Shown here one piece after another: positions 41,708 through 47,601 of a stretch of 64,000 bases of DNA. The stretch is taken from the NCBI GenBank assembly GCA_965231905.1, contig CBDDOO010000001.1, forward strand, positions 523,640-587,639, given 5' to 3'. How positions within the stretch are numbered: the stretch's first letter is position 1; every line of letters begins with the position of its first letter. This DNA is from Arenicellales bacterium (lineage in GTDB: Bacteria > Pseudomonadota > Gammaproteobacteria > Arenicellales > Poriferihabitantaceae). A program made the position numbers and the translations under genes. The notes beneath the pieces are model-generated. The model made no database searches. It was not told the origin of the DNA and saw nothing but the letters and a program-made list of their open reading frames with translations.

Positions 41708-42922
41708 TCAGTTGAAGTCTAGTTCATAAACTTCTCCTGCCAGATTTTTCTGCCATCCTCCAATGTCTCCATAGGAGTTCGGCCACAACACATTTTCCCT
41801 TGATGGGTTCACACACCTTGGTAGCACAACCAAATCCATCTCACCTGGTTTTTCCCCCTTGTCACCAAACAATGATGTTTGTGTAGGTCTTGATGCCTTG
41901 CTTGCCATGCTAAACATATGGTGCGTTGGCCATGCATCCCGGATGGCACGGACTGTGGTCTGGAGGGTGAATGATCGCTTATCCGTGCGTACTACAATTG
42001 TCGCATTGACCTTGGTTATCTTGGCAAGTTGATTGAAAACACCTCGGACGATCTCTGAGTATTTTTCTCGGTTTCCGTAGCGATGCCCTTGACTCCACTC
42101 GGGGGTTGCCGGACCTCCTAATGCCCAAATCCGTATCCAATTGTCATACCTGTAATCTGTCACCCCCATGTAAGGTGGTGACGTTAGAACCAGCGAGGCC
42201 CGCTGGTTCCGGCAAACCTGATATGTATGAAGCCCATTTCTCGCATCACCGAAATAGATTTCCGCTTCAGTATCCGCCCTTACAATTCCCCGTGCATACC
42301 TCCATTCCACACGGGACTTCAAATACTCCACTGCATTGATCTCGGGTGGGCGCATATTGCGCTTCTTCCACCAACGAACTGCGTAGTTCGGCCCCATCGC
42401 TTTGCTCTGGCGCATCTGGTTTGACAACCCACCTCCGATCTTTGCATGAAGATAAACCAGAAGGACCGCGGATACCATTCTGTCAATTTTTGAATTTCTC
42501 CAGTCAAGGTTGCGGCGGGCACTGTTAACAAAGCCCAAAACGTCTGAGCACCAAGCCCATTCCTGGAACTCTGTCATTGGAATGAAGTCCTCTGGTTCAC
42601 GGCATCGTGCAATCTTGTCGATGCGTCGCAAGATACGGCCAAGCTGACGAGCAGGCGCAGTCTTTGCACTTGAAAAAACCCAACCCACCGGGTTCAGTTC
42701 ACATCCAAACGACTGACGGCCCAGTACTTGTGCAACGTAATTTGTGGTGCCTCGACCGCAAAAAGGGTCAATGACAAGATCGCCCGGTGCACTGTATCGA
42801 GAGACAATATTCCGTGCGAAGTCCACAGGAAACATCGCGTAGTATGGACCAAACCCAGCCCATCGACCCTCCCGGGTTCCGATGGTCCAGGCTTTAGCAG
42901 AACTATCAGGTATCATCATCAA
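41708..42922 (-). CDS. Site-specific DNA methyltransferase (amino-MTase, motif I before motif IV; SPPY suggests N4-cytosine)
   Basis: GPYYAMFP, IDPFCGRGTT (motif I) and LTSPPY (motif IV); start overlaps the nurA stop. Confidence 0.85.
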   Translation of the reverse strand: MMMIPDSSAKAWTIGTREGRWAGFGPYYAMFPVDFARNIVSRYSAPGDLVIDPFCGRGTTNYVAQVLGRQSFGCELNPVGWVFSSAKTAPARQLGRILRRIDKIARCREPEDFIPMTEFQEWAWCSDVLGFVNSARRNLDWRNSKIDRMVSAVLLVYLHAKIGGGLSNQMRQSKAMGPNYAVRWWKKRNMRPPEINAVEYLKSRVEWRYARGIVRADTEAEIYFGDARNGLHTYQVCRNQRASLVLTSPPYMGVTDYRYDNWIRIWALGGPATPEWSQGHRYGNREKYSEIVRGVFNQLAKITKVNATIVVRTDKRSFTLQTTVRAIRDAWPTHHMFSMASKASRPTQTSLFGDKGEKPGEMDLVVLPRCVNPSRENVLWPNSYGDIGGWQKNLAGEVYELDFN

Positions 42923-43584
42923 AAAGTTCCTTCAGAATTTCTCCACCTATTTTCAAGGGAATCGCGGCATGCGAATGGGCCCGAACAATTGGAACAAAGC
43001 CTCCCTCAAACAAATATGTGGATAAGCGATCCACCACACCCAAGGTATCCGGCAATCCAGGATAGGCTGAAATAGAGGTATTACTGAGGTCCACAGCCGC
43101 CTCCGAGGTCATCGCGGTATTGACTACCATACGTTGTCCAGTTGCATTCTTGTAGAGAACCATCCGACCAAAATAGGTGTCTTTCCCCCATTCCTTTGCC
43201 CCTGGGGGTCGATAGACAATATTCCTGTGAATATAGTCTATTGATGGAAGGAGTGCCGTTCTCTCGGAGTACCTTCTTCCCGGTCCACTCTTTTCATCAA
43301 AGTCAAGTTGATCAAAATGTTCGACGAACTGCCCTGTTTTTATGAGTGAGAAGAGAAGAAGAGGTCGGCCGGTCATTCGCAGACATTCAGAGTTGATCCG
43401 ACAGAGTTCATCCCGGACTCTCGGTGCGACCGCGGCGAACTGCCCAAAAGCAGCAAGGGGGCCATCAATGACGAAAGCGAACTCAGGAAGCATACGAGTA
43501 GTGCGAGGAGTGGAAAGAAAAAATCTCAGCACATTCAGAAGCATGATCAACTCCAGAAATCGCATGACTTGTATGATTGAAATT

Positions 43585-43757
43585 CCCTGGTAATCAGGCC
43601 AGATTACGAGGGAGGCGTGAGGGGCGCTCCGCTGTTTGACGGGTGAGAAACGATTTTCGTTTTTGCACCGAGGGGAAGTAAGGAACCCCTCACGCCAGTT
43701 TTCTGCTCCGAATAGATACAGGGGGAACTCAGTCCCGAATACAAGTGGGGAGCAGAA
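43585..43757 (+). ncRNA. Predicted bridge RNA of the IS110 element (5' hairpin, target-binding loop, donor-binding loop)
   Basis: Stems at 43585-43612, 43614-43624/43686-43696 and 43701-43709/43749-43757. Donor-loop guides ATAGATAC (43712-43719) and ATACAAG (43739-43745) match the element's own circle junction ATAGATA-CT-TGTAT exactly. Transcript ends are inferred. Confidence 0.8.
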
Positions 43758-43786
43758 TCTTCATTCTACCGTACAGGAGATAGAAA

Positions 43787-44737
43787 ATGAAAGATCCGAT
43801 GAAAAAAGTCGCTGGCATTGATGTGGGCAAGAACCGTCTGGACGTGTGTTTGGATCGAGGTCTGGTTGAGGGTTTCGAGAATACCGCGCAGGGCATTGCG
43901 CGTCTGGTGAAGCGTCTGCACGCGGGGGGCGCTGAGCAGGTGGTGTTGGAGGCCAGTGGCGGATACGAACGATTTTTGCTGGAGGAGTTGCGGGCTGCAG
44001 GTATCCAGGCGAATCGGGTGCAGCCGTCGCGGGTGCGCGCTTTTGCCCATGCGCTCGGAGTGGGGGCCAAGACGGATGCGCTGGACGCTCGTTTGCTGTG
44101 CGTATATGGTCAAAGTCTGGAGTTGCCGGGTAACCCGTCGGTCTCTTTGGAAGTGCGGCATTTGCGGGAACAGGTGGATCGTCGGGAACAGTTGATGGCA
44201 CAACGGATTGAGGAGATGAATCGTTTGGAGAAGAATCCTCCGGCTTGGGTGCGGGACTCGTGCCGTCGTCACATGGCGTGGTTGAATCGGGAGATCCAAC
44301 GCATCGACACGGCGCTGCGCTCGTTGCTCCAGGAAGGCGAGTTGGCCGAGCGAGCGGCTTTGTTGCGAAGTGTCAAAGGCGTTGGAGAAGTTACGGTAGG
44401 CGTGTTGTTGGCTCATTTGCCGGAATTGGGAGAAGGTTCTGGCAAGTCCTTGAGCGCTCTGGCGGGTTTGGCGCCGTGGGCGCGCGACAGTGGTCAGCAT
44501 CAAGGCAAACGCAGCATTCGGGGTGGCCGCAAGGCGGTGCGCCGCGCGTTGTATATGTCAGCGCTGTCGTCGGTTCGTCACGACCCTGGGATGCGGAGTT
44601 TTTACCGGGGATTGCGGGATCGGGGCAAGCCGGGCAAGGTGGCCCTGGTGGCAGTGATGCGTAAGAGGTTGTTGCTTCTGCATGCAATTATCCGGAGAGG
44701 TACGCCGTGGGTGGAGACCCCAGCGCCAAGTCGGTAA
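43787..44737 (+). CDS. IS110-family recombinase/transposase
   Basis: RuvC-like DEDD residues (GIDVGK, VLEASG, KTDALDA) and C-terminal domain with VKGVG, RDSG and GGRKAVRRALY. Confidence 0.93.
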   Translation: MKDPMKKVAGIDVGKNRLDVCLDRGLVEGFENTAQGIARLVKRLHAGGAEQVVLEASGGYERFLLEELRAAGIQANRVQPSRVRAFAHALGVGAKTDALDARLLCVYGQSLELPGNPSVSLEVRHLREQVDRREQLMAQRIEEMNRLEKNPPAWVRDSCRRHMAWLNREIQRIDTALRSLLQEGELAERAALLRSVKGVGEVTVGVLLAHLPELGEGSGKSLSALAGLAPWARDSGQHQGKRSIRGGRKAVRRALYMSALSSVRHDPGMRSFYRGLRDRGKPGKVALVAVMRKRLLLLHAIIRRGTPWVETPAPSR

Positions 44738-45444
44738 AAAAAACAATAAAATAGTGGACTTGGAACATAGATACTTCTCCGTGGGGCTCCCCATTGGGTC
44801 CGGCTTCGTTGAATCTCTCGTGAAACCGTAGCTGATCAGTACTGAATATCGGTCTGTCCAGACCACAACAACAGTCAATCTGACCTTCAGAAGGGGCCAA
44901 TTTTCTGCCACAATCTTCAAAATGTGGACACCTGAAAGTATTTATCCGCCCTGATACGAGAGCTTCATATGTTTCGAGTAGCGTTTCATGCCCAGATTGG
45001 ACAATCTTCCCATGCAAGGCTTCAAAGACAGTAGTGCGGAAAAAATCACGGGGCTGAAGACCATCCTCACGGATAATATTCCGGCCCGGCAAGACTGTTT
45101 GCAGGGTATGTGCGGAATCCATCTCATTGAACGCCTTTGGAGGGATGATCTTACCGCTTCCTCTGTCTTTCAGTTTACGCAGATCAATGTAGACCAGAGC
45201 GAGTTGAACCAGGCTGGCCTCTGCACCCGGAAATCCGTTCTTCAGAGTTTCTGTGATCAGTGACCCATCAATTGCAATCACTCGGTCAACGGGCACTTCA
45301 GTACGTGGAATTTCAGCAGGTGATAGTTGAGGTCCTCTTGACGGTTCTGTCGGCTTGATTCGACCAGAGAAGTCCTCAAAAATCTTACTTTGCTGGAGCG
45401 AAATTAATGCCTCTCCAGTTGTGCGCTGGCCTTTATACGGCATG

Positions 45445-47601
45445 TCATGATTCTCCTTCGACCGAGAACAGATCAATCTGGACAGGTATCGTAAATGGAT
45501 TCGAAAGTGTTCGCATGCGAACAAAACCAGGGTCTGTTATTGATTTGATCTGATAGGAGTAGTCTTCGAAATCGTAAAATTTTGAGATCGCGCGGACCTC
45601 ATCGGAATTATTCAAGTGAGCGATGAACCAGTTGTCCGTGTTTTTCAGAATGGCAGGCATCACAGACGAAGGCTCCTGGGTGGCGAGAACCATACCAATC
45701 CGGTACTTGGATCCTTCCTTGGCCGTGCGTGCCCAAATGGTCTTCAGTTCATCCTTGCCTCCTGCAGCTGGTAGAAGATTGTGGGCCTCTTCAAGATATA
45801 CCATGATTGGCGGAGGTGGCTTGAGAGTGTCGTCCGATTCGAGTTGAGGATCAATGAAGTCTTGCTTCTGTCGGTTGAAAATTGCCCACAGAATTCTTTC
45901 GGCAGCATTCACATTTTGGTCAGGGTCGCCTGTAGATTGATCGAAAATCACAAGCTTTCCAGCTCGAAGATCCTCAACCACCTCTGCCGCATAGTCCTTG
46001 GTGGACTGTGGAGAGTGCTGGTGTATCAGGTTTCTGTATTGCCTGACACCATTAGGGTAACTGTAGATTGCAAGCAGATTTCGGAGAGAGCCATCATCCC
46101 AGGGTCTTTCGTCATGATTCTTCCGATACTCCCTGTCAAAACCATTGTATCCGCTGCCCTTTTCCTCCATAAATTTAAGTAAGCCCTTGCACGCTTCAAC
46201 AAAGGAGTCCCATGGGGGGTTTTCCTTGCCAAGTATTTCAGCCGCCGCTTCAACCTGATTTTTCGTTGCTTCATCAGTACAGTCGTTATTTTTCATCGTA
46301 CCCCGAAGTTCCTTGCTGAACAGTCCCTTGATCCAAGGGCCAGAATCTGAAGCGGGAAATCCCGCTGCAGATAGTGTAGACCGATAGACCTCGACAATCC
46401 TTCGAAATCGTATCCGATCACCGTACTCATCCAATGATGTTGGAGCCTCAATGATCGTATCTCGAAACGATTTGATATAGTTTCGACTATCACTCTGCAA
46501 TTGGTTGTCAATAATTGATTTGCCGACAATCAACTGATCCAGAGCCTGCTGTACTTGGGGTATGTCTCCCCAGTCTGAAACGCGGGTGCCATAGAAATTG
46601 ATTTTGACAATCTTCCGATGTGGATCATTCGGATGTTTGTTGAGCCCGTAGGTGGAAATTTCGTCTTCCCGACCTGTATTCTGCGCTTGTTCATGTACGG
46701 ACTTGATGGAGCCACCATCCTGCACATTGTCGTTGGCGTATTCACCATTGGGATCGAAAATCAACTGCCCCACTCTCGCATGTGGATTGTTTCGTCGAAG
46801 TAGATAAACTGCCTTGGCTGTAATCTTCATGGCATTGGATTTTCCGCCCCGACTCATGCCCCCGTAGAAGGTTCTACGTGATACGAAATCAACCGGATCA
46901 ATCTGGACCGGAACATTGTCTACAGTTTCATCCACCCCAACTTCACTGGCCGCAAACCTGACGCGACCTACCCGCAATTGACCGGTATTTCCAAGATCAT
47001 CCGTGCCTGTGGTTTTCTGGAAATTGACGATCTTGGACAAAAGGTCTCCTACTGGCTTGTAAACCTTCATTCCTTTCCCAGAATAGTAATTCACCAGATC
47101 AGCGCCAAATGTGAATCCATACTTACCATCAGGATCAGCTTTCATACGAAATGTACCCAGAACACGACATCAATACCCCCCGAACGACAGATTATTACGG
47201 GTCCAATCGTCCACCCGGGTTGGATGATCCCAGGTTTCCCCGGAGTCTGTAGCCCTCATTCCAGCCTGAAATCTGTATTCTTCCATCTCACGGGCATTGG
47301 GCAATGGGCAATCTCCGATAATCCTCAGGAGAACAAGACAGGTCTCCTCATCTTCCGCCAGCGTGTCGTCATCGGAATCTGGATTCAGGCGACTGGCCAC
47401 CAAAAACGATCCGTGCGGCAACCCACGAACCTTCTCCCGAGCATAATCATGCACAAGCACTTGGGCATCCTTATAGTTGATTGAAAGCAGGTCTCCGATG
47501 CACAAATCGGAGTCAAGCAGGTTTTGGAGAAATTGACCGGCATCAGTGGAACGGGTGGTCACCAAGTCTTCGATGATCGAGCCCAGCAAATTATTATTCA
47601 T
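45445..47601 (-). pseudogene. HerA/FtsK-like ATPase (DUF87 type) with one in-frame TGA at 47170-47172
   Basis: N-terminal HAS-barrel-like part (IGDLLSINYKDAQVLVHD), then ...FGGY*CRVLGTF... in the same frame, Walker A GMSRGGKS, Walker B VYLEEAHN and EGSKYRIGMVLATQEPS. Confidence 0.8.

What the first reader, a model, noticed from the sequence alone, without database searches (positions are those of the whole stretch)
43568..44775. IS110 element with a fully readable bridge RNA; guides predict a target that differs from the site it occupies
Seen: the circle junction would read ATAGATA-CT-TGTAT, and the donor loop carries ATAGATAC (43712-43719) and ATACAAG (43739-43745, reverse complement of CTTGTAT) as exact matches. 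The target loop carries TGTTTGAC (43633-43640) and GGGGAAG (43672-43678), predicting TGTTTGA-CT-TCCCC. The real site is CGCATGA-CT-TCTCC, with three mismatches in the core-distal part of the left arm and one G:T wobble. Established: IS621-type IS110 recombinases use such two-loop bridge RNAs and a CT core. Inference: this is a natural relaxed-specificity insertion and a new orthologue for programmable recombination.
Basis: partly seen in the sequence, partly recalled or inferred. Interest (0 to 1): 0.72.

Follow-up and report, generated by a model that had tools for sequence, protein, structure and literature searches.

The report
IS110 bridge-RNA element, imperfectly matched site
This is an intact IS110-family jumping gene with a readable two-loop bridge (guide) RNA that has landed inside a NurA-type gene at a site matching only 8 of its 12 guide letters; that is an ordinary natural off-target event for this known system, and the only mildly new point is that the element's target-reading loop has been exchanged between related elements.

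Summary
Window 43568-44775 is a 1208-bp IS110 element with CT at both ends. It has an intact recombinase, which passes NCBIfam 'IS110 family RNA-guided transposase' and is homologous to IS621 and ISCro4. It also has a 5' leader that folds as a 5' stem-loop, a target loop and a donor loop.

Twenty relatives support the fold: 95.8% of cells are paired and 23 of 44 pairs show compensatory changes. About 40 independent insertions of relatives confirm the guide register.

The occupied site, CGCATGA-CT-TCTCC, matches the predicted TGTTTGA-CT-TCCCC at 8 of 12 non-core positions. That places it in the top 0.4% of genomic CT sites. The mismatches predate insertion, because two of them lie in a conserved Met codon of the disrupted NurA-family gene.

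This is not exceptional. Relatives usually match 9-11 of 12, left positions 1-2 are barely read, and other sites at 8/12 or lower exist.

New here:
- The target-loop module is 97.6% identical to that of an element whose body is only 73.5% identical, so it is a mosaic.
- Its two private guide changes both match the occupied site.
- No perfect target exists in this genome, where the element is single-copy.

No RNA data could be obtained. Verdict: a new member of a known kind, of low to moderate interest.

The parts
43568..44775 (+). Whole IS110-family element ('ISA'), 1208 bp counting the CT at both ends
   Evidence: Ends defined by comparison with relatives. Excision in silico restores the NurA-family ORF. 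Single copy in the genome.
43568..43569 (+). Left copy of the CT core
44774..44775 (+). Right copy of the CT core
43572..43577 (+). Candidate -10 box TATGAT in the left end. It is completed by the -35 box only in the excised circle.
   Evidence: My own scan of the joined ends gives TGGACT-17 nt-TATGAT, 9 of 12. No sigma-70-like promoter is found in the integrated state. Inference only.
44755..44760 (+). Candidate -35 box TGGACT in the right end
   Evidence: Inference only.
43584..43613 (+). Bridge RNA 5' stem-loop
   Evidence: Helix 1 of the consensus structure: 12 pairs, 10 with compensatory changes.
43614..43696 (+). Target-binding loop: outer stem GGCGTGAGGGG/CCCCTCACGCC, a short second stem, a large internal loop and an inner hairpin
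   Evidence: Helices 2-4, 94-100% paired, 11 pairs with compensatory changes. This module is 97.6% identical to that of L010 and 89.2% identical to that of ISA'.
43633..43640 (+). Left target guide TGTTTGA plus C, which reads the first core base
   Evidence: The aligned position in relatives covaries with their left flanks.
43672..43678 (+). Right target guide GGGGAAG, the reverse complement of CT-TCCCC
   Evidence: The right guide covaries with the right flank across about 15 guide variants: CCGGG, CCCGC, CCTGC, CATGC, GTCCC, GCGAG, CCCGA and others.
43703..43755 (+). Donor-binding loop: outer stem, internal loop, inner hairpin
   Evidence: Helices 5-6, 97-99% paired.
43712..43719 (+). Left donor guide ATAGATAC, identical to the right end at 44767-44774
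   Evidence: It covaries with the right end in relatives: ATAGATA, ACAGATA, ACGGATA, AGGGATA.
43739..43745 (+). Right donor guide ATACAAG, the reverse complement of the left end CT-TGTAT
43787..44737 (+). Recombinase gene, 316 aa, intact
   Evidence: Pfam DEDD_Tnp_IS110 and Transposase_20. NCBIfam NF033542, 193 bits against a cut-off of 140. Full-length homology to ISCro4 (9t56) and IS621 (8wt6). D12, E55, D97, D100 and S235 align with the catalytic DEDD and Ser residues; the residue roles are from my own knowledge of IS621.
43561..43567 (+). Left target arm actually used, CGCATGA
   Evidence: It is the complement of the Val-Met-Arg codons of the disrupted gene.
44776..44780 (+). Right target arm actually used, TCTCC
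   Evidence: It is the complement of the Gly-Glu codons.
42906..45354 (-). Disrupted 443-aa NurA-family gene, split by the element. It sits between a HerA-like ATPase gene and a DNA methylase gene.

Best explanation
Window 43568-44775 is an intact, probably active IS110-family element of the IS621 type.

Mechanism, inferred by analogy with IS621:
- On excision, the ends join as ...ATAGATA-CT-TGTAT... The join brings a -35 box in the right end next to a -10 box in the left end.
- An RNA of roughly 180 nt is then transcribed from the left end.
- Its donor loop pairs with the joined ends, through ATAGATAC and ATACAAG.
- Its target loop pairs with a chromosomal site, through TGTTTGAC and GGGGAAG.
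- The DEDD/Ser recombinase exchanges strands at the CT core.

This copy inserted at an imperfect target. The core is matched. The right arm is matched except for one G:T wobble. The three core-proximal left-arm bases plus position 2 are matched. Left positions 1, 3 and 4 are not.

That is within the natural tolerance of this clade, which mainly reads left positions 3-7, the core and the right arm. It also fits the published off-target and 'half-match' behaviour of IS621.

The target-loop module is shared almost letter for letter with an otherwise distant relative (L010), so this module moves between lineages by recombination.

The element's right guide carries a private G-to-A change, which asks for CT-T. 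The REP-like hairpins that relatives use read CT-C. This probably explains why the element has no cognate site here and exists as a single copy inside a gene.
For: Shown:
- Family membership of the recombinase.
- A conserved three-module RNA fold with compensatory changes: 95.8% of cells paired, 23 of 44 pairs compensatory, 0 of 500 shuffles as good, and slid controls at 41-53%.
- Guide/site covariation across 22 guide types and 40 sites.
- The 8 ISB copies sit at sites that match their guide at left positions 3-7, the core and the whole right arm, 10-11 of 12 in all.
- Exact donor-guide matches, with covariation in relatives.
- Precise restoration of a 443-aa NurA-family ORF.
- The site is in the top 0.39% of 279,295 CT sites for similarity to the guides: 1,096 sites match at 8 or more, 192 match better, and none matches 12/12.
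- The left-arm mismatches lie in a conserved Met codon, so they are original.
- Both ISA-private substitutions inside the target loop are guide positions and both match the occupied site.
- Mosaicism. In the target loop ISA sides with ISA' at 0 informative sites and with L010 at 7; in the body the split is 251 to 13 (p = 4e-9). L010 shows the reciprocal pattern, 14:2 against 26:136 (p = 9e-9).
- The REP-like hairpin family and its two-sided use.

Inferred: the junction promoter.
Against: - RNA production and current activity are therefore inferred.
- Only one copy of this exact element is known: none turned up in 40 related genomes, in the JGI metagenomes or by exact-protein look-up. Its real target preference is therefore untested.
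- The direction of the module exchange is not resolved. ISA may have received the loop, or L010 may have received an ISA-type loop.
- The NurA/HerA/methylase module is absent from 30 relatives. The insertion may therefore have happened in another host, with a different set of available sites.
- The left guides read only the first core base (their next base is G or A, not T). This differs from what is described for IS621.
Confidence: 0.8

Rival explanations
1. The insertion was directed in trans by the bridge RNA of the co-resident 8-copy sister element ISB, or by an ISA'-type CATCA guide that the element carried before its target loop was replaced. On this reading the present guides are irrelevant to the site.
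For: The site CGCATGA-CT-TCTCC resembles the ISB/ISA' target ..CATCA-CT-CCCCC. It matches at 7 of 12 positions, and both right-arm differences would be G:T wobbles. The ISB donor loop differs from ISA's right end at one distal base only, ACAGATA against ATAGATA. Trans action of IS110 recombinases is reported for ISPpu10, in the section title of the preprint 10.64898/2026.03.19.712850.
Against: It needs a mismatch at left position 6. That position is matched in all 12 distinct natural sites of the close clade (hand count from the table). It also needs non-Watson-Crick pairing next to the core. The element's own guides match better, at 8 of 12, with mismatches only at positions that vary in natural sites. 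The two guide letters private to ISA both match this site, which would be about a 1-in-16 coincidence if another guide had chosen it.
Confidence: 0.1
2. The apparent mismatch is a product of later change: the guides, or the flanks, mutated after a perfectly matched insertion.
For: Guide letters are the fastest-evolving part of the leader. Nine of 83 target-loop positions differ between ISA and ISA', against 4% in the body. Right-arm position 12 is a synonymous third codon position.
Against: Left positions 3-5 are the complement of a Met codon and positions 1-2 belong to an Arg codon. Both are conserved in homologues of 75-80% identity, and position 12 has the same letter in those homologues, so the flanks have not drifted. 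If the guides had drifted after insertion, there would be no reason for the two ISA-private guide letters to match the site.
Confidence: 0.05
3. The element is a dead relic: it is no longer transcribed or able to move, and its site says nothing about current specificity.
For: It is a single copy, has no perfect target in the genome and has no promoter in the integrated state.
Against: The ORF is full length with all catalytic residues aligned. It is 96% identical to a protein found on 11 metagenome contigs at 6 distinct sites, and two further close copies raise that to at least 8 sites. Every helix of the RNA is intact. Lack of a promoter in the integrated state is the normal condition for IS110 elements.
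Confidence: 0.05

Closest known systems
IS621 (E. coli, IS110 family) and its bridge RNA (Durrant et al. 2024, PMC11208160; Hiraizumi et al. 2024, PMC11208158; PDB 8wt6-8wt9)
   Same: - A DEDD plus Ser recombinase of about 320 aa.
- A left-end non-coding RNA with a 5' stem-loop, a target loop and a donor loop.
- Left guides in the sense of the top strand; right guides complementary to it.
- A CT core.
- REP-type hairpin repeats as the habitual target of the clade.
- A natural target that need not match the guide perfectly: the IS621 wild-type target differs by one letter from its loop.
   Different: - The right target guide is 7 nt (CT plus 5), against 4 nt in IS621.
- The left guides read only the first core base.
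- Protein similarity is remote (phmmer E = 2e-33).
- This copy sits inside a gene, with four non-matching positions.
ISCro4 / IS622 bridge recombinase (PDB 9t56; Perry et al. preprint 10.1101/2025.05.14.653916)
   Same: It is the best solved-structure match (E = 6e-36, full length) and belongs to the same system type.
   Different: It is a different orthologue. ISCro4 has been engineered for use in human cells, whereas nothing has been tested for this one.
'Half-match' off-target insertion of IS621 (Xie et al., bioRxiv 10.64898/2026.08.31.748434)
   Same: In both, insertion occurs where the core and one arm are complementary and the other arm is poorly matched. Here the right arm plus core is matched except for one wobble, and the left arm matches at 4 of 7.
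   Different: Half-match was shown in vitro and in re-analysed E. coli data, mainly for donor-like half sites. Right-target-only events could not be scored there, because the IS621 right guide is too short. The case here is a single fixed natural insertion.
ISPpu10 and REP/stem-loop-targeting IS110 elements (Na et al., bioRxiv 10.64898/2026.03.19.712850)
   Same: Relatives of this element (ISB, ISA', L010, L025) insert beside a GC-rich hairpin repeat, CTCCCCC-loop-GGGGGAG.
   Different: The copy under study is not at such a hairpin. Any role of the hairpin is untested here.

Membership tests
IS110 family, IS110 group (bridge-RNA elements of the IS621 type) | Recombinase with an N-terminal DEDD (RuvC-like) domain and a C-terminal Tnp domain carrying the catalytic Ser | tested here: met
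   PF01548 (E = 3.6e-18) and PF02371 (E = 5.4e-18). NF033542 'IS110 family RNA-guided transposase', 193 bits against a cut-off of 140. Full-length alignment to ISCro4 and IS621 with D12, E55, D97, D100 and S235 aligned.
IS110 family, IS110 group (bridge-RNA elements of the IS621 type) | Non-coding left end upstream of the recombinase gene that folds into a two-internal-loop RNA | tested here: met
   MFE z-score of -5.2. Consensus fold of 20 relatives: 44 pairs, 95.8% paired, 23 compensatory, and no shuffle or slid control comes close. Rfam itself has no matching family.
IS110 family, IS110 group (bridge-RNA elements of the IS621 type) | Donor loop complementary to the joined element ends | tested here: met
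   The 8-nt and 7-nt exact matches. The left donor guide covaries with the right end in four variants.
IS110 family, IS110 group (bridge-RNA elements of the IS621 type) | Target loop complementary to the insertion site | tested here: met
   Met for the clade: relatives match at 9-12 of 12, and own pairings clearly beat cross pairings. For this copy it is met only partly, at 8 of 12, which is the top 0.39% of genomic CT sites.
IS110 family, IS110 group (bridge-RNA elements of the IS621 type) | Conserved dinucleotide core shared by donor and target; no inverted repeats and no longer target duplication | tested here: met
   CT is present at both junctions and a single CT remains at the reconstructed empty site.
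IS110 family, IS110 group (bridge-RNA elements of the IS621 type) | The RNA is actually transcribed, from a promoter rebuilt at the circle junction | not testable with these tools
   The joined ends carry a 9-of-12 sigma-70-like promoter.
IS110 family, IS110 group (bridge-RNA elements of the IS621 type) | RNA-dependent recombination activity | not testable with these tools
   Needs a bench assay.
IS1111 group (seekRNA at the 3' end) | Guide RNA encoded downstream of the recombinase gene, with sub-terminal inverted repeats | tested here: not met
   Only 38 nt lie between the stop codon and the right end, and the structured RNA is upstream of the gene.

The most novel reading that the evidence does not exclude
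Target-binding loops are exchanged as cassettes between diverged IS110 lineages living in the same group of sponge symbionts, which would be natural 'reprogramming' by recombination. This copy would then be a freshly retargeted element. Its loop, plus two private guide mutations, has taken it off the REP hairpins that its relatives use and left it with no cognate site. Its one insertion, into a defence-type NurA gene, would show the minimal pairing this recombinase accepts in nature: the core, the right arm and three or four core-proximal left bases.
Probability: 0.45. Interest if true: 0.45.

Novelty: new member of a known kind. Interest (0 to 1): 0.3.

Why it matters
It adds a well-documented natural example to a system of current engineering interest.

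- It shows which guide positions are actually read in one clade: left positions 3-7, the first core base and a 7-nt right guide.
- It shows that a four-position deviation can still give a fixed insertion in nature.
- It shows that the target loop behaves as an exchangeable module in evolution, while the donor loop stays linked to the element's ends.

None of this changes the known mechanism. For the host, the practical effect is the inactivation of a NurA-type gene in a HerA/methylase module that looks like a defence system.

Tried and rejected
- Rfam scan of the region: no family matched.
- Exact-protein look-up of the recombinase: no other record.
- 40 related genomes: only 75-77% relatives and short left-end stumps, no second copy of this element.
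- JGI metagenome scans, first with the ISA/L010-type guide region and then with a guide-agnostic scaffold pattern: no match in either.
- Search of the genome for the predicted 14-mer TGTTTGACTTCCCC: absent. There are two one-mismatch sites, both unoccupied. The 12-mer TTTGACTTCCCC occurs once, in a REP repeat, and is also unoccupied.
- Donor-like 'half-match': rejected. The site shares only 1 of 7 left-arm and 2 of 5 right-arm letters with the donor ATAGATA-CT-TGTAT (read directly from the sequence).
- Post-insertion drift of the flanks: rejected on codon conservation.
- My first regular-expression attempt to extract guides failed and was replaced by extraction from an alignment.
- Two right ends in the family table (L029, L031) were mis-called by my script and were excluded from the statistics on element length.
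Full report
**Observation**

The region was read directly.
- TGTTTGAC at 43633-43640
- GGGGAAG at 43672-43678
- ATAGATAC at 43712-43719
- ATACAAG at 43739-43745

The left junction reads CGCATGA-CT-TGTAT. The right junction reads ATAGATA-CT-TCTCC. The element is 1208 bp counting both CTs. It carries one long ORF, 43787-44737 on the + strand, of 316 aa.

**The recombinase**

- It has the two Pfam domains of IS110 transposases.
- It passes NCBIfam NF033542, 'IS110 family RNA-guided transposase', at 193 bits against a cut-off of 140.
- It aligns over its full length with the solved ISCro4 and IS621 recombinases, at E = 6e-36 and 2e-33.
- D12, E55, D97, D100 and S235 stand at the positions of the DEDD and Ser catalytic residues. 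The residue roles are from my own knowledge of IS621.

**Boundaries**

Deleting 43570-44775 and leaving one CT joins two minus-strand ORFs into one 443-aa frame. That protein has many homologues of exactly 443 aa, of up to 80% identity at 100% coverage. The more distant ones are annotated as NurA. Two homologues are collinear, without a gap, across the junction at ...GEPHGEV|MRFLEL.... The element is therefore a clean insertion into a NurA-family gene. That gene lies between a HerA-like ATPase gene and a type II DNA methylase gene. The module is absent from 30 related genomes.

**Copies and relatives**

The genome is 2.9 Mb in 2 contigs with 54% GC. Earlier notes and the relatives' record titles indicate a marine-sponge symbiont. 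It holds one copy of this element, which I call ISA. It also holds 8 identical copies of a 1196-bp sister element, ISB, that is 76% identical.

- All 8 ISB copies sit at (G/A)C(G/A)CATCA-CT-CCCCCC, inside a REP-like repeat.
- An element with 95.4% nucleotide and 96% protein identity, ISA', occurs on metagenome contigs at at least 8 distinct sites.
- An 88.7% relative, L025, is on a 570-kb contig.
- Two 75-77% relatives, L010 and L012, are in a genome of the same genus.
- Relatives of 50-62% protein identity occur in other bacterial MAGs: Nitrospirales, Binatia, Dehalococcoidia, Thermodesulfobacteriota and Poriferihabitaceae.

**The RNA**

The ISA leader folds far better than shuffles, with a z-score of -5.2. 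An alignment of 20 distinct leaders gives a consensus with three parts:
- a 5' stem-loop;
- a target module, made of an outer stem, a short stem, a large internal loop and an inner hairpin;
- a donor module, made of an outer stem, an internal loop and an inner hairpin.

On that structure 95.8% of cells are standard pairs and 23 of 44 pairs show compensatory changes. No shuffle out of 500 reaches the observed values, and sliding the partner by 1-3 columns drops pairing to 41-53%. This is the IS621 bridge-RNA architecture. Rfam has no family for it.

**Guide register**

At the aligned positions ISB carries ..GTCATCAC.. and GGGGGAG. That spells CATCA-CT-CCCCC, exactly what flanks all 8 copies.

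Across the wider family the right guide covaries letter for letter with the right flank. Examples are CCGGG, CCCGC, CCTGC, CATGC, GTCCC, GCGAG and CCCGA. The left guide covaries with the left flank, and the left donor guide covaries with the right end (ATAGATA, ACAGATA, ACGGATA, AGGGATA).

Over 40 distinct insertions of 22 guide types, own pairings average 4.6 of 5 on the right and 5.0 of 7 on the left. Cross pairings average 2.5 and 3.5. The left guide is 7 nt plus the first core base, and the right guide is CT plus 5 nt.

Unlike the description of IS621 (PMC11208160), the left guides here do not pair with the second core base. The right target guide is 7 nt here, against 4 nt in IS621.

**How unusual is the mismatch?**

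ISA predicts TGTTTGA-CT-TCCCC and sits at CGCATGA-CT-TCTCC. That is 8 of 12 non-core positions. The mismatches are at left positions 1, 3 and 4, plus a guide-G:target-T wobble at position 12.

Genome-wide, 1,096 of 279,295 CT sites (0.39%) match as well or better. Of these, 192 match better and none matches perfectly. The guides clearly had a say, but better sites were available in this genome.

Among the 40 natural insertions the totals are as follows:

| Matches out of 12 | Sites |
|---|---|
| 12 | 1 |
| 11 | 8 |
| 10 | 20 |
| 9 | 5 |
| 8 | 4 |
| 4 | 1 |
| 3 | 1 |

My 8-column window for the left guide slightly undercounts the left arm in the wider family.

Position by position, over the 12 distinct sites of the close clade (hand count):
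- left positions 1 and 2 match in only 5 and 4 sites;
- position 3 matches in 9, position 4 in 10 and position 5 in 11;
- positions 6 and 7 match in all 12.

ISA is therefore at the low end of a normal range. Its meaningful deviations are left positions 3 and 4 and the wobble at 12.

Published work already reports all of the following:
- zero to two mismatches as the usual state;
- a one-letter difference between the IS621 loop and its natural target;
- off-target sites with one or two mismatches;
- recombination at sites matching only the core plus one arm.

**Were the mismatches there at insertion?**

Yes. On the gene strand the site is GGA GAA GTC ATG CGA, which encodes G-E-V-M-R.
- Left positions 3-5 are the Met codon.
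- Positions 1-2 are the first two letters of the Arg codon.
- Positions 10-11 belong to the Glu codon.

All these residues are conserved in homologues of 75-80% identity. The synonymous position 12 has the same letter in those homologues. The CT core itself exists only because Glu is encoded by GAA here; the homologues have GAG.

**Mosaic target loop**

Sliding-window identity shows two patterns. ISA positions 31-120 are 96-98% identical to L010, whose overall identity is 76%. From about position 120 onward ISA is 96-100% identical to ISA'.

At informative sites, ISA sides with ISA' and with L010 as follows:
- in the target loop (positions 46-128), 0 sites with ISA' and 7 with L010;
- in the rest of the element, 251 sites with ISA' and 13 with L010 (Fisher p = 4e-9).

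L010 is itself a mosaic. Its first 128 nt are 97% ISA-like and 78% ISB-like. Its body is 90% ISB-like and 73.5% ISA-like. The informative-site counts are 14:2 against 26:136 (p = 9e-9). At least one transfer of the 5' module between lineages therefore occurred. The breakpoint lies between the target and donor loops. The direction is not resolved.

Inside the target loop ISA differs from L010 at only two positions. Both are guide letters: left position 2, C to G, and right position 10, G to A in the RNA. Both match the occupied site. This favours the element's own present guides as the ones that chose the site.

**Why a single copy in a gene?**

The genome has about 90 REP-like hairpins of the form CTCCCCC-N-GGGGGAG. 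One strand reads ..CATCA-CT-CCCCC, the side ISB and ISA' use. The other strand reads GATTTGA-CT-CCCCC. The ISA/L010-type left guide (..TTTGA) fits that second side.

ISA's private right-guide change asks for CT-T instead of CT-C. No ISA copy occupies any of these hairpins. I infer that the change at position 10, next to the core, took ISA off the REP target and left it without a cognate site. This is not shown.

**Expression**

Joining the right end to the left end creates TGGACT-17 nt-TATGAT, a 9-of-12 match to the sigma-70 consensus. The integrated copy has no promoter-like site. This agrees with the IS110 model of a junction promoter but is only a consensus match.

**Rivals**

- *Trans action by the ISB or an ISA'-type guide.* This gives 7 of 12. 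It needs a mismatch at left position 6, which is never mismatched in the close clade, and a wobble beside the core. It would make the two private guide matches a coincidence. I give it about 0.1.
- *Post-insertion drift.* The codon argument counts against it. About 0.05.
- *A dead relic.* The intact ORF, the intact RNA helices and the active near-identical ISA' count against it. About 0.05.

**Verdict**

The element is a new member of a known kind. Its modest points of interest are the mosaic target loop, the two private guide letters that match an off-REP site, and a natural four-position deviation that can be shown to predate insertion.

Noticed in passing
L026-L066 (loci from genome contigs); for example L035 left junction ...CCGTCA-TT-TGTATG and right junction ...ACAGATA-CT-CCCGC: In the 50-57% relatives the left junction carries TT and the right junction CT. 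Unoccupied repeats nearby read CCGTCA-TT-CCC... So target core (TT) and donor core (CT) share only their second base. The eighth base of the left guide covaries with the first core base (T or C).
   Followed up: partly
L011 and L013 (genome G005) and L014 (genome G001), around locus position 1502 on the minus strand: Solo left-end stumps of 53-64 nt, 89-95% identical to ISA, with no recombinase gene behind them. One is cut exactly where the left target guide begins. Two lie at ..GCCGA-CT sites.
   Followed up: partly
window 41708-47145, minus strand: An operon of a HerA-like ATPase (DUF87; PADLOC HerA models), a 443-aa NurA-family gene (disrupted by the IS) and a type II DNA methylase. The same three-gene order is seen in a metagenome contig (L111). 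The module is absent from 30 related genomes, so it is probably a horizontally acquired defence-type module that is now inactivated.
   Followed up: partly
G000 genome-wide; for example C2:995272-995821, and the window-external loci L002-L009: A REP-like repeat family of about 90 hairpins, CTCCCCC-N3-6-GGGGGAG, flanked by ..GCGCATCA on one strand and GGATTTGA or ..TGTGA on the other, often in tandem clusters. IS110 relatives with different left guides enter it from either side.
   Followed up: partly
L010 (G001:C1:1704665-1705869): This element is a mosaic. Its first 128 nt (5' stem-loop plus target loop) are 97% ISA-like, while its recombinase gene is 90% ISB-like.
   Followed up: yes
L054, L055 (Dehalococcoidia MAG): Two copies of a five-copy relative sit at sites matching their guides at only 3-4 of 12 positions. 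These are either true guide-independent insertions or flanks reshuffled by recombination between copies.
   Followed up: no
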